Positions 5,162-60,388 of a stretch of DNA of 64,000 nt are shown one piece after another. The DNA comes from Chiloscyllium plagiosum. Lineage: Eukaryota. Within the stretch, counting starts at the first letter, position 1. Every line of letters begins with the position of its first letter. A program made the translations under genes and the position numbers. The stretch is from positions 87,168,139 to 87,232,138 of the forward strand of contig NC_057718.1 of NCBI RefSeq assembly GCF_004010195.1. The letters run 5' to 3'. The notes below the pieces were generated by a model, which made no database searches, had not been told where the DNA came from, and worked only from the letters and a program-made list of their open reading frames with translations.

Positions 5162-5319
5162 TTGAAATCGACGTTTCGAGCAAAAGCCCTTCATCAGGAA
5201 GGGCTTTGGCCCGAAACGTCGATTTCAAAGCTCCTTGGATGCTGCCTAAACTGCTGTGCTCTTCCAGCACCACTAATCCAGAATCTGGTTTCCAGCATCT
5301 GCAGTCATTGTTTTTACCT
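5162..5319. mobile_element. Short Penelope-derived insertion with terminal palindrome and hammerhead core
   Basis: 14-bp TSD aataaaacaaatct (5148-5161, 5320-5333); palindrome 5160-5230; minus-strand CTGATGA-A-GGGC-TTTT-GCTC-GAAACGTC. Confidence 0.8.
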
Positions 5320-13203: not shown

Positions 13204-13605
13204 CGAAAAGGGTGGTGCTGGAAAAGATCAGCAGGTCAGGCAGCATGCGAGGAGCAGGAGAGTCAACATTTCGGGCATAAACCTTTCATCAGGAATGTGA
13301 AGGGTGAAGGGGGATGAGAGATGAATAGGGGAATGGGGTTGAGGCTGGGGTGAAGGTAGGTGGGAAGGTGATACATGGCTGCAGGTGGGGGTAATTGTGA
13401 TAGGGAGGGAGGGTGGAGAGGTGTGGTGGGAACGAAGATGGACAGATAGGACATGTCAAAAGGGCAATGCCAATTTGGAGGGTTGGCGTTCTTCCTCCAT
13501 TTGGGGGGTTGGCTTTGATTTGGCAGTGTAGGAGGCCCAGGGCTTAGATGTCCTTGGGGGAGTTGAAGTAGTCGGCGACATGATGGTGGGATTGTTTGGT
13601 GCACA
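13204..13605 (-). mobile_element. Penelope-like 3' fragment with decayed hammerhead core (13261-13296)
   Basis: Same terminal block as 57702-59538; minus strand attcCTGATGAAAGGTTTATGCCCGAAATGTTG. Confidence 0.7.
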
Positions 13606-19594: not shown

Positions 19595-19802
19595 TTTGGA
19601 GATGCCGGTGTTGGACTGGGGTGTACAAAGTTAAAAATCACACAACACCAGGTTATAGTCCAACAGGTTTAATTGGAAGTACTAGCTTTCGGAGTGTCGC
19701 TCCTTCATCAGGTGATTGTCAACCACCTGATGGAGCAGCGCTCCGAAAGCTAGTGCTTCTAATTAAACCTGTTGGACTATAACCCGGTGTTGTGTGATTT
19801 TT
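19595..19802. mobile_element. Palindromic Penelope-derived insertion (second family) with hammerhead core
   Basis: 13-bp TSD aaaaaagacaaga (19582-19594, 19803-19815); arms 19631-19714 and 19724-19804. Confidence 0.8.
19681..19714 (-). ncRNA. Minimal type I hammerhead ribozyme motif (AGCU helix-III variant)
   Basis: Minus strand cacCTGATGA-A-GGAG-CGACA-CTCC-GAAA-GC-TAgt. Confidence 0.6.
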
Positions 19803-23669: not shown

Positions 23670-26150
23670 TGTTCCTTTTCTCAAGGATACTGTCCTTGAT
23701 CTTTTTCAGAGGGGTAATAAACCAGGTCGGGCTCCAATCAGAATGGTTTGATATAGAAATGAAAAGGACTTTGAGAAGCCTTTTGTTTATATGTAAACAG
23801 ATGAGACTTCAGGCCAAAGTGGTCATGTTTTAGAAGTGACCTGTATAAAGAGAGGAGAGTGGTCAGCTCTCTAGCTGAGCAGTTCAGCCCAGAACAAGTT
23901 GGGAGTTCATCAGTAAGCTGTGTGGAAACGGATTCTCTGTCTCTCCTTCTGCCCTTCTAACTTCAACCTGTAAGCATTTGTTCCCGTTGTACTGTGTTTT
24001 AAAGGGGGTTTGCTTATTGGGACTGTTGTGTATATTTGGAACAGCATAATTAAGTCTAGTTTGGATAGACTGAGTTCTGGGGTTCTTTATTCTGTTCTTG
24101 TGTTTCATTATGTAATTTTGTGAATAGATTTTTGTCTGTTTAAAAACCTGGTAGTCAGCTTCGCTAACTTACTCCGGATAATTTTCACGGTACACTTACC
24201 GAAACAAATTGCAAAGTTATTTTTAGCTCTGCTAAGCTGACTGAGTTACACAGAAAGATGAGAACTTAAAACAGTTGTATCAAAAAGCATATACAGAGAA
24301 GGAGAGTGAATGCATCCCTGTGTGTTATTACTTAACAAATGACGTCTTAATGAGGAAATGGAGACCATCACACATTCAAGCAGATGATTAATGGGCAGAG
24401 AATCATCAAATTGTTTTGCCAGTAGGGTATAGAAAGGAAGTGCTGCGAGTGGCGCATGAGCTACCACTTGGAGGTCATTTAGGGGTTAGGAAAACACAGA
24501 CTGAAATACAAAGATATTTTTACTGACCTAGACTACACAAGGTTGTAGGCAAAAGTGAGGACTGTAGATGCTGGAGATTAGAATCGAGACTGGTGCTGGA
24601 AAAGCACAGCAGGTCAGGCAGCATCCGAGGAGCAGGAAAATTGACATTTCAGGCAAAAGCCCTTCATAGCACAGCAGGTCAGGCAGCATCCGAGGAGCAG
24701 GAAAATTGACATTTCAGGCAAAAGCCCTTCATCAGGAGGTTGTAATTGAATTTTGCCAGACACATCATACATGTCAGCTAATCAGAAAACCACAGGCAGT
24801 AATAAAGCCTGCACCTTTAATACCTATTCCAGCATTTGAGGAACCTTTCACAAGAGTCTTGATTGATTGCATAGGTCCCCTACCTCAAACAAAAAGTGGG
24901 AATAAGTATTTATTAGCAATATTGGATGTGTTGACTAGATTTCCAGAGGCAATCCCATTATGCAATATCACAGCAAAAGGGTTGTAGAAGAATTACTTAA
25001 TATTTCTTTACTAGATACGGACTAACAATAGAGATCCAGTCAGATCAAGGATCAAACTTCACATCCAACCTATTCAAGGAGATTATGGATAATTTGGGAA
25101 TAAAGCAATTTAAATCTACTGCGTACCATCCTGAATTGAAGAGAGCGCTAGAGTGATGTCATCAGACATTAAAGACCATGTTGATGGCTTATGGTCAGGA
25201 TTATCCAGATGATTGGGATAAGGGAGTTCCGTTTGTACTTTTTGCAATCAGAAATGCACCAAATAAATCAACCAAATTCAGTCCATTTTGAAGTAATTTT
25301 TGGGCATGAAGTAAGAGGACTGTTAAAATTGATTAATGAGAAATTAATAAGTCAGAATTCAGAGACCACCCATTTGGACTATGTGTCACATTTTAGAGAA
25401 CGATTAAATAGAGCTGGAGAGTTGGCTGGAGAGCATTTAAAAGTATCACAGCATACAATGAAACAAGAAGTGAATAAGAAATCACAAATTCGCAATTTTG
25501 CAATTGGGGATAAGGTATTGGTGTTACTTCCAGTAACAGGTGAGCCTTTAAAAGCAAGGTTTCGTGGACCTTATCAAATCGAGAGGAAATTGAGTAAGGT
25601 GAACTACGTGAGAAGGACTTCAGACAGGAAGAAGTCTCAAAAATGTGTATTGTGGATATGCTCAAAAGGTATTTTGATAGAGAAGGAAAGCAAGAGGAGA
25701 AGGTGTTAATGATTACAGCACAGAAGGATGAACCAAGTTCAGAGGATTCTGAATTGGACATTCCTCAAATCAAATTGGACAATGAGGAAGTTGGGTTAAA
25801 TTGTTGAGTTACCTTCCACAAGAAAATTCAAATGACCTGGAAGAGTTATTATTATCACATGGGGAGATATGCGGAATTAAACTGAGAAGTGCTAACCTAA
25901 TTGTACATGATGCAGATATAGGAGATGCTGTTCCAATTAAGCAACATCCTTATAGGCATAACCCTCTAAAGTTGGCACAGGTTCAGAAGGAGATGGAGTG
26001 CATGCTCCAGGTAGCATAATCAAAGTGAGCTACAATGACTGGAGCTCACCCATAGTCATGGTGCCAAAGCCAGATGGTATCCACTGGTTATGTGTGGGCT
26101 GTCGCAAAGTCAATACCATTATAAAGTGGAACTTTTCCAATTTCCACCTT
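23670..26150 (+). mobile_element. Decayed Ty3/gypsy LTR retrotransposon, Gmr1-like order (LTR-like segment, integrase, then RT start)
   Basis: AHELPLGGHLG..C..CQ zinc finger, EPFTRVLIDCIGPLP, QSDQGSNF, GPY motif, then IKQHPYR...WSSPIVMVPKPDG; stops and frameshifts; LTR boundaries approximate. Confidence 0.85.
24548..24736 (-). mobile_element. Penelope-derived terminal unit inserted in the integrase, with 65-bp internal tandem duplication
   Basis: 8-bp TSD aggttgta (24540-24547, 24737-24744); 24603-24667 repeated at 24668-24732. Confidence 0.85.
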
Positions 26151-30037: not shown

Positions 30038-30211
30038 CTAGGCAAAAGTGAGGACTGCAGATGCTGGAAACCAGAATTTAGATCAGCGTGATGCTGGAAA
30101 AGCACAGCAGTCAGACAGCATCCGAGGAGCAGGAAAATCGACGTTTCAGGCAAAAGCCCTTCCTGTTGAAGGGCTTTTGCCTGAAACGTCGACTTTCCTG
30201 CTCCTCGGATG
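30038..30211. mobile_element. Short Penelope-derived insertion with terminal palindrome and hammerhead-like core
   Basis: 14-bp TSD ctccatcccttcag (30024-30037, 30212-30225); arms 30117-30162 and 30168-30213; + strand CTGTTGA-A-GGGC-TTTT-GCCT-GAAACGTC. Confidence 0.85.
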
Positions 30212-30369
30212 CTCCATCCCTTCAGTTGTTGTCTGCTCCTAAATGATCCTTTCCACTATGAATTGACAATGCCTGCCATATTTCCCCCACTCTCAGGCAT
30301 CACTCAAGCTCATATGATGTTCTCAATTTCAAGCTCATCAATCACTCTTACCTCATTTACTACCAGTGA

Positions 30370-39859: not shown

Positions 39860-41242
39860 TGGAAAAGGAAATGGAAGATATAGACTGTAGGGAAATAGAT
39901 GGTGACATCTTGCAAAATGTCCAGATTACAAAGGAGAAAGTGCTGGATGTCTTGAAATGGGGAAAGGTGGATAAATCCCCAGGACCTGATCAGGTGTACT
40001 CGAAAACTCTGTGGGATGCTAGATAAGTGATTGCTGGGCCTCTTGCTGAGATGTTTGTATCATCGATAGTCACAGGTAAAGTGCCGGAAGACTGGAGGTT
40101 GGCAAACGTGGTGCCACTTTTTAAGAAGGGTGGTAAGGACAAGACAGGGATCTATAGACGAGTGAGTCTGACCTCGGTGGGCAAGTTGTTGGAGGGAATC
40201 CTGAGGGACAGGATGTACATGTATTTGGAAAGGCAAGGACTGATTCGGGATAGTCAACATGGCTTTGTGCGTGGGAAATCATGTCTTACAAACTTGATTG
40301 AGTTTTTTGAAGAAGTAACAAAGAGGATTGATGAGGGCAAAGCGGTAGATGTGATCTATATGGACTTTAGTAAGGTATTGGACAAGGTTCCCTATGGGAG
40401 ACTGATTAGCAAGGATGGATCTCATAGAATACAGGGAGAACTATCCATTTGGATACAGAACTGGCTCAAAGGTAGAAGACGAGGGTGGTGGTGGAGGGTT
40501 TCTTTTCAGACTGGAGGCCTGTGACCAGTGGAGTGCCACAAGGATCGGTGCTGGGTCAGTGTTGGTGAACAAAGAGACCTTGGATGCAGGTTCATAGATC
40601 CTTGAAAGTGGAGTCGCAGGTAGATACGATACAGTATTGAGTACAGGAGTTGGGAGGTCATTTTGTGGCTGTACAGGACATTGGTTATGCTACTGTTGGA
40701 ATATTGCATGCAATTATGGTCTCCTTCCTATCGGAAAGATGTTGTGAAACTTGAAAGGGTTCAGAAAAGATTGACAAGGATGTTGCCAGAGTTGGAGGAT
40801 TTGAGCTATAGCGAGAGGCTGAACAGTCTGGGGCTGTATTCCCTGGAGCGTCGCAGGCTGAGGGGTGACTTTATAGAGGTTTACAAAATTATGAGGGGCA
40901 TGGATAGGGTAAGTAGGCAAAATCTTTTCCCTGAGGTTGAGGAGTCCAGAACTAGAGGGCATAGGTTTAGGGTGAGAGGGGAAAGATATAAAAGAGTCCT
41001 AAGGGGCAACTTTTTCACGCAGAGGGTGGTACGGGTATGGAATGAGCTGCCAGAAGAAGTGGTGGAGGCTGATACAATTGCAACATTTAAGAGGCATTTA
41101 GATGAGTATCTGAATAGGAAGGGTTTGGCAGCATATGGGCTGGGTGCTGGGAGGTGGGACTAGATTGGGTTGGGATATCTGGTCAGCATGGACGGGTTGG
41201 TCCGAAGGGTCTGCTTCCATGCTGTACATCTCTATGATTCTA
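39860..41242 (+). mobile_element. CR1 LINE, 5' truncated, RT core internally deleted
   Basis: KSPGPD, PEDWRLANVVPLFKKG, QHGF..GKSCLTNL, LERRRLRGD; 8-bp flanking repeat ttttactg (39852-39859, 41243-41250). Confidence 0.95.
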
Positions 41243-51481: not shown

Positions 51482-52577
51482 GTTTGTACAAACTTGATTG
51501 AGTTTTTTTGAAGAAGTAACAAAGAAGATTGATGAGGGCAGAGCAGTAGATGTGATCTATATGGACTTCAGTAAGGCGTTCGACAAGGTTCCCCATGGGA
51601 GACTGATTAGCAAGGTTAGATCTCATGGAATACAGGGAGAACTAGCCATTTGGATACAGAACTGGCTCAAAGGTAGAAGACAGAGGGTGGTGGTGGAGGG
51701 TTGTTTTTCAGACTGGAGGCCTGTGACCAGTGGAGTGCCACAAGGATCGGTGCTGGGCCCTCTACTTTTTGTCATTTCCATTAATGATTTGGATGCGAGC
51801 ATAAGAGGAGTTAGTAAAGTTAGTAAAGTTAGTAAAATTACAGCTAGTAAGTTTGCAGATGACACCAAAATTGGAGATGTAGTGGACAGCGAAGAGGGTT
51901 ACCTCAGTTTACAACAGGATCTGGACCAGCTGGGCCAATGGGCTGAGAAGTGTCAGATGGAGTTTAATTCAGATAAATGCGCGGTGCTACATTTTGGGAA
52001 AGCAAATCTTAGCAGGACTTATATACTTAATGGTAAGGTCCTAGGGAGTGTTACTGAACAAAGAGACCTTGGAGTGCAGGTTCATAGCTCCTTGAAAGTG
52101 GAGTCACAGGTAGATAGGATAGTGAAGAAGGCATTTGGTATGCTTTCCTTTATTGGTCAGAGTATTGAGTACAGGTATTGGGAGGTCATGTTGCGACTGT
52201 ACAGGACATTGGTTANNNNNNNNNNNNNNNNNNNNNNNNNNNNNNNNNNNNNNNNNNNNNNNNNNNNNNNNNNNNNNNNNNNNNNNNNNNNNNNNNNNNN
52301 NNNNNNNNNNNNNNNNNNNNNNNNNNNNNNNNNNNNNNNNNNNNNNNNNNNNNNNNNNNNNNNNNNNNNNNNNNNNNNNNNNNNNNNNNNNNNNNNNNNN
52401 NNNNNNNNNAACATTTAAGAGGCATTTGGATGGGTATATGAATAGGAAGGGTTTGGAGGGATATGGGCCGGGTGCTGGCAGGTGGGACTAGATTGGGTTG
52501 GGATATCTGGTCGGCATGGACGGGTTGGACCGAAGGGTCTGTTTCCATGCTGTACATCTCTATTACTCTATGACTCT
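51482..52577 (+). mobile_element. Young CR1 LINE with open RT frame (contains assembly gap)
   Basis: YMDFSKAFDKVPH, SGVPQGSVLGP, KFADD without stops; 7-bp TSD attataa (51475-51481, 52578-52584). Confidence 0.95.
52216..52409. other. Assembly gap (N run) inside CR1
   Basis: Ns. Confidence 0.99.
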
Positions 52578-56368: not shown

Positions 56369-56471
56369 TTGATCTCCAGTTTGTCAACAAGCACATTTTC
56401 AGCCCATAAATAATACCTAAAGTAATCATTACTCAGAAAGATGCTGGTTTGACCTGTTTATATCTCAACAG

Positions 56472-56655
56472 GACTACACGACCTGTTCCAGTTCTCCTGG
56501 ATGAACACATTTTTGAAGAACAGGGGAAGAGTAAGGCAGAAGAAATTCGCAAGTTCCGCCAAAGGCGAGAGATGATCCTCGAACAGCGAGAGAAAGAAAG
56601 GCAGGCTCGCCATCAGCTGAAGACACAGCAACTGCAAATGTGTGAGGCTTTGCAG
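56472..56655 (+). CDS. ADGB: Androglobin exon, TTRPVPVLLDEHIFEEQGKSKAEEIRKFRQRRE...QMCEALQ (coiled coil)
   Basis: caacag acceptor, gtaagg donor; 184 nt, phase 2-0; KAEEI..FRQ.R motif. Confidence 0.94.
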
Positions 56656-57802
56656 GTAAGGTCATTTGTTGCCAGAAATACTCCTTGCGAAGCTTCCATT
56701 ACATACTAGAAAATGCCAGTTTCCTGCAGTATATGCTCCAAAGAAATTTCAGACTTAGTTTACACACAAAATTTAGCATCAGCAGTGTAGTACTAAGGAA
56801 GGGCTGCACTGTTAAAGGAACCACATTTTTGGTGAAGCTGTATCTGCCCGTCCAGATTGTCCCACAACATCTCACATCACCAGTTCCAGTGTTATCCCAG
56901 CTGACGGCATTTCAGATCCCTGACTGAAATATGGCTTGATAGATCACGTTTTGTTTTGGTTTGAATGAGGGGTCTCTCAATGAGACAGAAGCACACCATG
57001 TTGTAGATTTTGTCTTAACAATTAAACAAGTTTATAAAGCAAAAGAAATGAAGATAGAAAAAAAAACAATATAATATAACTTTTAAAAGTTTTAACACAC
57101 TGTTAAAATGTAATCTTATTAATCCCAAAGCACTCCTTACAAGTATCAAAAAAAGATGCTTTTGCACAGGTACTGAAAAGCTACTTCTTTACAGGTAAAA
57201 CATGAGAATTCTTTTCCCTAACACTTCAGTAAGGTAGCTGTGACTTTAACTTCTAGGCTGGAACATCTGATAGCTTATTCCTGGAACTTTTATACACCTG
57301 AATTTAAGAAGACGCAGCTTCAAGCCTTTTTCAGGATTTTATCCCAACACTTCCAATCTTGGGACTGTTACTAACTCCATACTCTAAGGTAGTCTAGTGT
57401 CACTATATTCTCTGAAATAGAATAAAGAACTGCAGATGTTGGAGATCTGAAACAGAAATTGCTGGAGAAACTCAGCAGGCCTGGCAACATCTGTGAGAAG
57501 AAAGCAGAGTTAATGTTTTGAGTCCGGTGACACTTCGTCAGAGCGGTTAGCAGCTGGAACAACTTGGTATTTGTGCTGAAGCCAAAGTTGGGGCAAGGGG
57601 AGTGGTGAACAGCTAGGTGGAGATGAAGCCCAGAGAGAAAGAGATGTGAAAGGGGATAGGTAAACAACGAGACTATGGATAGTGAGTCATTTGGGATTTT
57701 AATCTTCGAGGAGAAAGTGAGGTCTGCAGACGCTGGAGATCAAAGCTGAAACTTTATTGCTGGAACAGCATAGCAGGTCAGGCAGCATCTAGGGAACAGA
57801 AG

Positions 57803-57838
57803 ATTCGACGTTTCGGGCACATGCCCTTCTTCAGGAAT
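57803..57838 (-). ncRNA. Minimal type I hammerhead ribozyme motif, intact
   Basis: Minus strand ATTC-CTGAAGA-A-GGGC-ATGT-GCCC-GAAA-CG-TC-GAAT. Confidence 0.75.
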
Positions 57839-57886
57839 GAGCAGAAAGTGTTCAGCAGGAGAAGATAAAAGATAGGGAGGAGGGAC

Positions 57887-58845
57887 NNNNNNNNNNNNNN
57901 NNNNNNNNNNNNNNNNNNNNNNNNNNNNNNNNNNNNNNNNNNNNNNNNNNNNNNNNNNNNNNNNNNNNNNNNNNNNNNNNNNNNNNNNNNNNNNNNNNNN
58001 NNNNNNNNNNNNNNNNNNNNNNNNNNNNNNNNNNNNNNNNNNNNNNNNNNNNNNNNNNNNNNNNNNNNNNNNNNNNNNNNNNNNNNNNNNNNNNNNNNNN
58101 NNNNNNNNNNNNNNNNNNNNNNNNNNNNNNNNNNNNNNNNNNNNNNNNNNNNNNNNNNNNNNNNNNNNNNNNNNNNNNNNNNNNNNNNNNNNNNNNNNNN
58201 NNNNNNNNNNNNNNNNNNNNNNNNNNNNNNNNNNNNNNNNNNNNNNNNNNNNNNNNNNNNNNNNNNNNNNNNNNNNNNNNNNNNNNNNNNNNNNNNNNNN
58301 NNNNNNNNNNNNNNNNNNNNNNNNNNNNNNNNNNNNNNNNNNNNNNNNNNNNNNNNNNNNNNNNNNNNNNNNNNNNNNNNNNNNNNNNNNNNNNNNNNNN
58401 NNNNNNNNNNNNNNNNNNNNNNNNNNNNNNNNNNNNNNNNNNNNNNNNNNNNNNNNNNNNNNNNNNNNNNNNNNNNNNNNNNNNNNNNNNNNNNNNNNNN
58501 NNNNNNNNNNNNNNNNNNNNNNNNNNNNNNNNNNNNNNNNNNNNNNNNNNNNNNNNNNNNNNNNNNNNNNNNNNNNNNNNNNNNNNNNNNNNNNNNNNNN
58601 NNNNNNNNNNNNNNNNNNNNNNNNNNNNNNNNNNNNNNNNNNNNNNNNNNNNNNNNNNNNNNNNNNNNNNNNNNNNNNNNNNNNNNNNNNNNNNNNNNNN
58701 NNNNNNNNNNNNNNNNNNNNNNNNNNNNNNNNNNNNNNNNNNNNNNNNNNNNNNNNNNNNNNNNNNNNNNNNNNNNNNNNNNNNNNNNNNNNNNNNNNNN
58801 NNNNNNNNNNNNNNNNNNNNNNNNNNNNNNNNNNNNNNNNNNNNN
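57887..58845. other. Assembly gap (N run) inside the Penelope-like insertion
   Basis: Ns. Confidence 0.99.
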
Positions 58846-58901
58846 TGAAACTTTATTGCTGGACCAGCACAGCAGGTCAGGCAGCATCTAGGGAACAGAA
58901 G

Positions 58902-58937
58902 ATTCGACGTTTCGGGCACATGCCCTTCTTCAGGAAT
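58902..58937 (-). ncRNA. Minimal type I hammerhead ribozyme motif, intact
   Basis: Identical to the 57803-57838 motif. Confidence 0.75.
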
Positions 58938-59445
58938 GAGCAGAGAGTGTTCAGCAGGAGAAGATAAAAGGTAGGGAGGAGGGACTTGGAGGAGGGGCGT
59001 TGGAAATGTGATAGGTGGAAAGAGGTCAAGGTGAGGGTGATAGGTCGGAGTAGGATGGAGGCGGAGGGGTCAAGAAGAAGACTGCAGGTCAGGAGGGCGG
59101 TGCCGGGCTGGAGGGATTCGGCTGAGACAAGGTGGGGGGAGGTGGGATGAAGAAACTGGTGAAGTCCAAGTTCATCCCCTGTGGTTGGAGGGTTCCAACC
59201 ACAGGGGATGAACTTGGACTTCACCAGTTTCTTCATCCCCCCTCCCCCCATCTTGTCTCAGCCGAATCCCTCCAGCCCGGCATCGCCTTCCTGACCTGCA
59301 GTCTTCTTCTTGACCTCTCCGCCTCCACCCTACTCCGACCTATCACCTTCACCTTGACCTCTTTCCACCTATCACATTTCCAACGCCCCTCCTCCAAGTC
59401 CCTCCTCCCTACCTTTTATCTTCTCCTGCTGAACACTCTCTGCTC

Positions 59446-59481
59446 ATTCCTGAAGAAGGGCATGTGCCCGAAACGTCGAAT
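59446..59481 (+). ncRNA. Minimal type I hammerhead ribozyme motif, intact, sense to ADGB pre-mRNA; predicted cut after 59477
   Basis: Stem I ATTC/GAAT, core CUGAAGA, stem II GGGC/GCCC, GAAA, palindromic ACGU helix III, GUC triplet. Confidence 0.75.
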
Positions 59482-59873
59482 CTTCTGTTCCCTAGATGCT
59501 GCCTGACCTGCTGTGCTGTTCCAGCAATAAAGTTTCAGCATTTGGGATTTTACCCTAATCTGTTAGTTCTACAATCACAATTACTAGTACTTGGCTCTTT
59601 ATTCCAGATTTATGTAATTTACATCCTCCAGTTATCACAGTGGGAATTGAACATTGGTCTCCCGAGTATTAGTTTAGGTTTCTGAATTTCTACTAACATA
59701 ATCTTGATGCTACAGTTCTAGTTATTAATCCTATTAAGCCACAATTTGCTTTGAGTGACTTGTATATCTGAAACCCCACATCCCTCTGCCATTCTATCGC
59801 AGCCAATTAGTTTTCACAGAGCATATGGCTTTTCTTTTTTTCCACCAAAATGTACTCCATCACATTTTAATTA

Positions 59874-60046
59874 CAGAACAACCTCGATTATCTGAATGAG
59901 ACAGGCGGGGAGTATTTTGTTCGGATAACTGATTGTTCGCTAACTGACCTGATCATAAACAAAGGAAGCATTTACGGGAGCTTGAGATCTTGTTCGGATA
60001 ATCCAAAATTCGGATAATTGATGTTCAGATAACCGAGGTTGTTCTG
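59874..60046. mobile_element. Tigger/pogo-like MITE (173 bp)
   Basis: TIRs cagaacaacctcgattatctgaa / ttcagataaccgaggttgttctg; TA on the left. Confidence 0.8.
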
Positions 60047-60202
60047 TTTATTAAAATTAATTTGGCAATTGCACATTTATTTCCCATGTTTATTAATATC
60101 TTCCTGCAATTTCCACAGCTCTCCTTGATATTAACATCCAGTTTGATGGTTGTTTGTGCAAGCATGAATACTGATACAATCCCTTGTTTTCATTTACTGC
60201 AG

Positions 60203-60388
60203 GAAGCCTTGGATGAAGCTCGAAACAACATCTACCAACTCAGAGAGTCATACAGAAATAAACTTATCGAGGAAGAATTGAAGCAAAGAGAAATTGCAGC
60301 AATGGAAGTAGCTCTCCGAGCAGAGCAAGAGAGAAAGCCCGGGAGCTCCACGAGTAAAATACCTAAGAGCTCAGGAAAGCGAAAGTAA
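60203..60388 (+). CDS. ADGB: Androglobin terminal coding exon, EALDEARNNIYQLRESYRNKLIEEE...KIPKSSGKRK*
   Basis: actgcag acceptor, TAA stop; LDEAR..I..RE.YRNKL motif and basic C-terminus. Confidence 0.95.
   Translation, partial: EALDEARNNIYQLRESYRNKLIEEELKQREIAAMEVALRAEQERKPGSSTSKIPKSSGKRK

What the first reader, a model, noticed from the sequence alone, without database searches (positions are those of the whole stretch)
57702..59538. Three intact minimal hammerhead ribozymes in a young Penelope-like insertion in ADGB's last intron
Seen: the 36-nt motif ATTC CTGAAGA A GGGC ATGT GCCC GAAA CG TC GAAT occurs twice on the minus strand (57803-57838, 58902-58937) and once on the plus strand (59446-59481), inside an insertion bounded by a 14-bp TSD. 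It has paired stems I and II, the CUGANGA and GAAA cores and a GUC triplet, while helix III is only the palindrome ACGU. Known: Penelope-like elements carry such minimal type I hammerheads in their pseudo-LTRs, and these are thought to cleave as dimers. Inference: the two same-strand copies could form a double hammerhead in an element transcript, and the plus-strand copy is transcribed within ADGB pre-mRNA.
Basis: partly seen in the sequence, partly recalled or inferred. Interest (0 to 1): 0.75.

Follow-up and report, generated by a model that had tools for sequence, protein, structure and literature searches.

The report
Unfixed Penelope insertion with buried hammerheads
A broken, mirror-image copy of a very common shark jumping gene sits in the last coding intron of the androglobin gene and is missing from other sampled sharks; its small self-cutting RNA motifs are a known feature of such elements and are predicted to be blocked here by their own mirror image, so this is mostly ordinary.

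Summary
The three identical 36-nt motifs, the 14-bp TSD and the place in ADGB's last coding intron (56656-60202) are confirmed. The motif is the known minimal type I hammerhead of a Penelope-like element (RT, CX4CX2C linker, C-terminal GIY-YIG); its 33-nt core has 1,834 exact genomic copies. The insertion is a 5'-truncated head-to-head fold-back, the family's standard product (one short end plus one tailed end in 33 of 36 insertions; TSD in 34 of 36). It is young and unfixed: one run with identical flanks spans the empty site, a second likely does, and so does a related organism. Across the family, 5' ends pile up at the first base of the hammerhead (27 of 86), not at the cut site (2 of 86), suggesting uncleaved RNA starting there is the template. 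No cleavage was shown. The scan has reported this kind of shark insertion many times on other DNA. Known kind, low interest.

The parts
57688..57701 (.). Left copy of the 14-bp target-site duplication
   Evidence: present once in empty-site contigs
57702..57886 (-). Inverted pLTR copy 1 with the long ('tail') 3' end, 46 nt beyond the reference end point; its 5' side is cut by the gap
57803..57838 (-). Minimal type I hammerhead motif 1 (predicted cut 3' of 57807)
57887..58845 (.). Assembly gap, 959 N; content unknown
58846..59189 (-). Inverted arm (copy 2), 344 nt, begins flush with the gap; first 140 nt repeat the last 140 nt of copy 1 with 4 differences; may be the same arm as copy 1
58902..58937 (-). 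Minimal hammerhead motif 2 (predicted cut 3' of 58906)
59190..59193 (.). Head-to-head junction between the two 5'-truncated arms
59194..59538 (+). Direct arm (copy 3): last 32 codons of the GIY-YIG ORF (stop 59292-59294), then pLTR, ending at the family's short 3' end
   Evidence: 92-95% identical to ORF-bearing copies L044, L042
59444..59450 (+). Initiator-like TCATTCC around the first base of helix I (59446), where family 5' ends pile up; transcription start inferred, not shown; Inr consensus recalled
59446..59481 (+). Minimal hammerhead motif 3, sense to ADGB (predicted cut 3' of 59477)
59526..59531 (+). AATAAA in sense to ADGB inside the arm; use untested
59539..59552 (.). Right copy of the 14-bp target-site duplication
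56470..56655 (+). ADGB penultimate coding exon (start approximate, GT donor at 56656)
60203..60388 (+). ADGB last coding exon with stop
   Evidence: covered by RNA reads in X21

Best explanation
This is a recent, unfixed, 5'-truncated head-to-head insertion of a high-copy Neptune-type Penelope-like retrotransposon in ADGB's last coding intron, whose pseudo-LTRs carry the known minimal type I hammerhead, and the motifs are likely inert passengers here because ADGB pre-mRNA is predicted to fold them into a 344-bp hairpin. Likely route of origin (inferred): the element's GIY-YIG domain made a staggered cut about 14 nt apart; both 3' ends primed reverse transcription inside element RNA, one at the short start site and one about 37 nt further on (the tail); both cDNAs stopped early and were joined head to head. 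In the parent element the hammerhead likely sits at the very 5' end of the RNA and again in the 3' pLTR, cuts only when two copies pair through ACGU, and cutting is likely not needed for insertion, since uncleaved RNA appears to be the template.
For: Shown: 1,834 exact copies of the 33-nt core, 0 in the reversed control; parent copies with RVT_1 (E 1e-8), YIDD, DKG, CNRRRCNTC linker and GIY-YIG at the C-terminus; arm = ORF end + pLTR; 3' ends cluster at two sites (62 of 155 at 0-3 nt, 46 of 155 at 37-39 nt); 33 of 36 inverted insertions pair one short and one tailed end and 34 of 36 have an 11-18 nt TSD, window included; empty site with one TSD copy spanned by one 439-nt contig with no differences in X1 and one 546-nt contig in X9 (+49), X2 consistent on the left half. 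Predicted: both-arm fold -750 (plus) and -735 (minus) kcal/mol, helix I and II probabilities 0.0000, all 36 nt paired long-range at >=0.997. 5' ends: 27 of 86 usable arms at -35..-26 from the cut, 2 of 86 at the cut +-2 (p=4e-10 against uniform over -60..+23, arms of one insertion not independent). Literature: inverted 5'-truncated copy and one-sided 30-40 bp tail (PMC8557442, PMC3846280 passages); two internal RT starts, hammerhead cutting dispensable in vitro (PMC11167929).
Against: Folding is an equilibrium prediction and was made on the assembled sequence, whose middle copy may be a mosaic; if only copy 1 is real the duplex with the plus arm is still -289 kcal/mol over 145 nt. A transcript starting inside an arm would escape the hairpin. 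The window's arms differ at 8 of 324 nt against 11 of 2,478 nt in 31 other pairs, which is unexplained for so young an insertion (different templates, or assembly error). The RNA test had little power: one informative run, about 2% read, no read in unique intron sequence. The 5' start site is inferred from DNA ends only.
Confidence: 0.76

Rival explanations
1. One reading: the gap hides a real partial tandem, the middle arm's own promoter starts a minus-strand RNA at about 58937 that runs through both minus copies, and these fold into an active double hammerhead.
For: Copies 1 and 2 differ at 4 of 140 nt and carry rare letters; the scaffold gap is sized at 959; gap-free three-arm insertions exist (L053, L055); an RNA starting at 58937 would not contain the mirror arm; PLE promoters lie in the pLTR (PMC2377424, PMC6765202 passages).
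Against: Two arms is the usual form; copy 2 stops at the family's short-end branch point flush with the gap, as does one other gap-cut arm (L106), while 0 of 19 readable inner tandem junctions end at 0-3 nt (most of these loci were chosen by a tail pattern, which favours long ends); dimer constructs of such motifs cut only weakly in vitro (PMC4209133); two 36-mers are predicted to pair through the near-palindromic helix II strand (-22.6 kcal/mol) rather than ACGU (-3.1), a competing fold.
Confidence: 0.09
2. The hammerhead is inert but the insertion still alters ADGB RNA in carriers, through the sense AATAAA at 59526 (intronic polyadenylation, loss of the last exon) or through the long hairpin (editing, slower splicing).
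Against: No read joined arm and unique intron in X21, whose genotype is unknown; the signal would also be buried in the hairpin; the site lies about 1 kb from the donor and 0.66 kb from the acceptor.
Confidence: 0.1
3. The plus-strand hammerhead cuts ADGB pre-mRNA in trans-dimers with other element RNAs and so regulates the host gene.
For: The motif is in sense to ADGB and complete; family RNA is present in X21 on both strands; a related hammerhead becomes active with its own protein (PMC11167929).
Against: The antisense arm is transcribed first; helix I probability is <=0.01 even in the single-arm context; the insertion is unfixed, so no conserved host role; no end pile-up in X21 (low power).
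Confidence: 0.05

Closest known systems
[quoted passage not shown]
   Same: Full core, extra base between A9 and helix II, G-C at the base of helix II, short helix I, palindromic 15.2-16.2 without loop III, place in the pLTR, thousands of solo copies, pairs on opposite strands 100-700 bp apart, presence in fish Neptune and Poseidon elements.
   Different: Helix II is 4 bp here, not 7-8 as in Schistosoma; sharks are not named in the parts read (supplementary figures not seen).
Endonuclease-positive PLE insertions with inverted 5'-truncated copy and one-sided tail; Neptune/Nematis type (PMC8557442 and PMC3846280, passages read)
   Same: C-terminal GIY-YIG, CX2-5CxxC linker, head-to-head inverted pLTRs, 30-40 bp tail at one end, TSD, trouble for short-read assembly.
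   Different: TSD here is 11-18 nt with mode 14-15 (microhomology included), against 8-10 bp in the rotifer examples read; this copy holds no RT.
Poseidon element of Anolis carolinensis, PAc (PMC11167929; parts 1-2 of 4 read)
   Same: Two internal RT start sites downstream of the hammerhead that define the tail; both strands cut and extended; no RNA reads begin or end at the cut site.
   Different: Other clade; in PAc the ORF starts inside helix II, here the first AUG seen in read-through copies lies about 135 nt past the cut site. PAc cleavage was shown with protein; nothing was assayed here.
Non-LTR retrozymes (bioRxiv 10.64898/2026.07.22.740005; part 1 of 5 and passages read)
   Same: Derived from PLE pLTRs; 194-224 nt tandem arrays of this pLTR exist elsewhere in the genome (L101, L119, L139).
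   Different: The window's insertion is inverted and TSD-bounded, not a head-to-tail array.

Membership tests
Minimal type I hammerhead (PLE type) | Conserved core C3-U4-G5-A6-N7-G8-A9, G12-A13-A14, A15.1/U16.1, H17 | tested here: met
   read directly
Minimal type I hammerhead (PLE type) | Helix II and short helix I can form | tested here: met
   MFE of isolated 36-mer; helix I weak (0.31-0.50) and lost in context
Minimal type I hammerhead (PLE type) | Helix III reduced to a palindrome | tested here: met
   ACGU here; AGCU in another family of the same genome
Minimal type I hammerhead (PLE type) | Core conserved above its surroundings across copies | tested here: inconclusive
   75 copies: core mean 0.92 vs downstream 0.85, medians 0.92 and 0.92, p=0.16; N7 and loop II vary, majority core letters unchanged; helix I has a U-U mismatch in older subfamilies
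Minimal type I hammerhead (PLE type) | Self-cleavage after H17 as a dimer | not testable with these tools
   no assay; no RNA end pile-up in one low-power run
Rfam hammerhead families | Covariance-model match | tested here: not met
   none at E<=5; these models expect a helix III, so this lowers only the Rfam label
Endonuclease-positive PLE | Single ORF with RT and C-terminal GIY-YIG in the parent | tested here: met
   L042, L044: RVT_1 above cut-off; GIY-YIG E 3e-4, just under cut-off there and over it in L001
Endonuclease-positive PLE | pLTR joining ORF 3' end to ORF 5' start, with one-sided tail and inverted truncated copy | tested here: met
Neptune clade | CX2-5CxxC linker between RT and EN | tested here: met
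   CNRRRCNTC at 741 of L042 ORF; shared with Nematis (PMC8557442)
Neptune clade | RT phylogeny groups with named Neptune elements | not tested
   no named reference set at hand; the bioRxiv passage found only Neptune and Poseidon in vertebrates
Non-LTR retrozyme | Head-to-tail tandem units each with a hammerhead | tested here: inconclusive
   the only same-strand pair straddles the gap; the readable part is inverted

The most novel reading that the evidence does not exclude
The hammerhead begins at the first transcribed base of the element RNA (an initiator-like start at 59446) and is not a processing step but a pairing-dependent off switch: single RNAs stay capped and serve as template, while two RNAs that meet through ACGU cut off the first 32 nt and, in the 3' pLTR, the RT start sites. 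Because this insertion is unfixed, carriers and non-carriers give a natural test of whether a sense-strand hammerhead, poly(A) signal and long hairpin in ADGB's last intron change the host RNA.
Probability: 0.2. Interest if true: 0.6.

Novelty: new member of a known kind. Interest (0 to 1): 0.24.

Why it matters
As it stands it is one of thousands of copies of a known arrangement. Its modest value is as test material: the role of PLE hammerheads is still open (weak in vitro, dispensable for insertion in the one reconstituted system), and this young family offers regular ends that map an RNA start at the ribozyme's first base rather than at its cut site, a longer TSD than the examples read, tandem arrays where dimers could form, and a filled/empty allele pair in a host gene (androglobin's link to testis and cilia is recalled, not from a call).

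Tried and rejected
Rfam scan: no hammerhead family; miRNA-model hits at 59089-59294 only reflect the fold-back and were rejected. Three inverted pairs with the same 76-nt spacing suggested a unit copied whole; their junction sequences differ, so rejected. Flush overlap across the gap as proof of false duplication: only 1 of 27 gaps shows it (the window's own), and it follows automatically when two same-strand copies are cut by a gap, so it decides nothing. One RNA versus two RNAs for the two arms: 30 of 32 pairs share the subfamily marker, within-pair divergence 0.44% vs 0.81% between insertions of the same marker; inconclusive, since subfamilies may have been active at different times. No listed holder run is on record as RNA: no evidence either way. 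X22 laid 0 reads (no test); X6 did not cover the left flank (no test); X21 showed no begin or end pile-up but only about 2% of it was read. No long-read run was listed, so the gap was not resolved. The first breakpoint script stopped at clustered mismatches and was replaced by an alignment-based one; 7 of 93 arms were dropped there because a gap cut them, and one or two calls at about -195 or -165 reflect deletion variants rather than true ends. The automatic fold-back label mislabelled L149 and L170; by eye 11 of the 27 ends at -35..-26 join flank or tandem sequence, so the peak is not a fold-back artefact alone. Literature searches for a shark report: 'Penelope-like + Neptune + shark' 0 papers; 'Penelope + bamboo shark + retrotransposon' 1 listing, not read; supplements of PMC4209133 and of the preprint were not seen and may list shark motifs. 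Sequence and place look-ups in earlier findings returned nothing.

Full report
Observation. The 36-nt motif is present three times at the stated coordinates with no mismatch and is not expected by chance. The 14-bp duplication bounds 57702-59538. The isolated motif folds into helix I and helix II as its lowest-energy form, with helix II firm and helix I weak. The sequence shows the full core, an extra A before helix II, ACGU in place of helix III and GUC ending at 59477. Rfam has no hammerhead match here.

Host gene. Window exons match Pfam Androglobin_IV and V, and one exon is 100% identical to a record named androglobin of Chiloscyllium plagiosum, so the window is from a bamboo shark. Mapping four shark androglobins gives the exon order on the plus strand; the last coding intron runs GT 56656 to AG 60202. 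The plus-strand motif is therefore in sense to the pre-mRNA.

The element. The 33-nt core has 1,834 exact matches in the genome and none in the reversed control. A looser scan of 472,143 bases (42 fetched stretches plus the window) found 19 intact-looking minimal hammerheads, 3 of them this insertion, against 1 in the reversed control; by extrapolation the genome holds on the order of 100,000. [quoted passage not shown] The linker fits the CX2-5CxxC motif of Neptune and Nematis (PMC8557442, passages); clade was not tested by phylogeny. The plus arm is the last 32 codons of this ORF followed by the pLTR. Read-through copies show the pLTR continuing into the ORF start (328 exact matches).

Insertion anatomy. 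Among 155 readable arms the 3' end falls mainly at two sites about 37 nt apart (62 at 0-3 nt, 46 at 37-39 nt; the sample mixes loci chosen in several ways). Of 36 inverted insertions, window included, 33 pair one short with one tailed end and 34 have a TSD of 11-18 nt, mostly 14-16, microhomology included. The window has a tailed left end and a short right end, so it is the standard product. This matches the published one-sided 30-40 bp tail and inverted truncated copy (PMC8557442; PMC3846280, passages) and the two internal RT start sites with cutting and extension of both strands shown for the Anolis element (PMC11167929).

Age. A 439-nt contig of run X1 lies on 59539-59901 (letters 1-363) and on 57612-57701 (letters 350-439) with no differences, i.e. 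it crosses the site with a single 14-nt copy. A 546-nt contig of X9 (organism B) does the same with a few differences. X6 gave no cover. So 2 of 3 organism-A runs laid were informative and both point to the empty site; a filled allele in them is not strictly excluded because contigs drop variants and most pieces were not listed. The insertion is unfixed or private, which supports 'young' and argues against a conserved host role.

Two arms or three. Copy 1 ends and copy 2 begins at the gap and they share 140 nt with 4 differences. For one arm assembled twice: two arms is the norm, merging gives a standard 740-bp insertion, and copy 2 stops at the short-end branch point, where none of 19 readable inner tandem junctions ends (biased sample). 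For a real tandem: the differences, the gap size, and gap-free three-arm copies elsewhere. The window's arms are unusually unlike each other (8 of 324 nt; other pairs 11 of 2,478 nt), and some differences are common family variants while others are almost unseen elsewhere, which fits either separate templates or an error-prone local assembly. I put it at about even odds.

Can the motifs work here? On a read-through RNA of either strand the arms are predicted to form one hairpin in which every base of the motif is paired long-range at 0.997 or more and helices I and II vanish. In ADGB pre-mRNA the antisense arm is made first. Even without it helix I is <=0.01 in the single-arm context and about 0.2 for an RNA starting at 59446. 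Two free motifs are predicted to pair through their near-palindromic helix II strands, a feature not kept in sister subfamilies. Published dimer constructs cut weakly (PMC4209133; review PMC6765202, passages, which cites Lunse et al., seen only as a reference entry). The one informative RNA run covered the last exon, had no read in unique intron sequence and no pile-up of ends; this has little power.

What family ends say about the ribozyme. In 86 usable arms of 93 chosen without regard to the hammerhead, 27 begin at -35..-26 from the predicted cut, peaking at the first base of helix I, and 2 begin within 2 nt of the cut, where about 3.7 are expected under a flat distribution. At least 11 of the 27 join flank or tandem sequence, not a fold-back. 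The peak base sits in TCATTCC, which fits the initiator consensus as I recall it; PLE promoters in the pLTR are published (PMC2377424, passages). The simplest reading is that uncleaved RNA beginning there is copied to its end. This agrees with the Anolis result that cutting is dispensable and that no reads end at the cut. It remains an inference from DNA.

Conservation test. In 75 copies outside the window, core positions were not significantly more conserved than the 60 nt downstream (p=0.16), which are themselves well kept; variation falls on N7 and loop II, CpG decay hits G12 and 16.2, and older subfamilies have a mismatch in helix I. Other families in the same genome keep the core with different helix II and an AGCU palindrome. 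The motif is real as a maintained element feature; selection on this copy is not shown.

Verdict. A new member of a known kind. Earlier notes of this scan describe the same class in at least 29 genomes (267 findings hold the search words); these are unchecked and were used only as comparison after my own tests. One note reports ends clustering at the cut site in another genome, which I do not see in this family. What is particular here is the empty-site evidence and the gap. Interest 0.24.

Noticed in passing
L139 (G000:C8:24156500-24159700), L119, L101: Head-to-tail arrays of this pLTR with 194-224 nt units, up to five intact hammerheads in L139; retrozyme-like and a better place to look for double hammerheads than the window.
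   Followed up: partly
window 57425-57560, minus strand: An older, decayed pLTR of a related family with a broken hammerhead core lies about 130 nt left of the insertion.
   Followed up: partly
window 5174-5300, 13213-13292, 13740, 24546-24735, 30038-30250, 56227: Further older pLTR remnants with decayed hammerheads, some as inverted pairs; 56227 lies just upstream of the penultimate exon.
   Followed up: partly
window 19687-19711, minus strand: Hammerhead-like core of a different family with another helix II and an AGCU palindrome (relatives in L075, L081).
   Followed up: no
window 59873-60047: Small element with 24-nt inverted ends, high depth in DNA contigs of two organisms, so another repeat in the same intron.
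   Followed up: no
window 40027-40521 and 51498-52418: Fragments of other reverse-transcriptase elements in ADGB introns (RVT_1); the second is cut by a 194-N gap at 52216-52409. Four other repeat-like frames tested had no Pfam match.
   Followed up: partly
L137 (G000:C1:55035500-55037600): An inverted insertion whose junction holds pieces of the element's ORF start in both orientations, a sign of template jumps from the RNA 5' end into the ORF 5' region.
   Followed up: no
L106, L116, L128: Three insertions share the same internal junction upstream of the hammerhead, suggesting a deleted sub-lineage that was itself copied.
   Followed up: no
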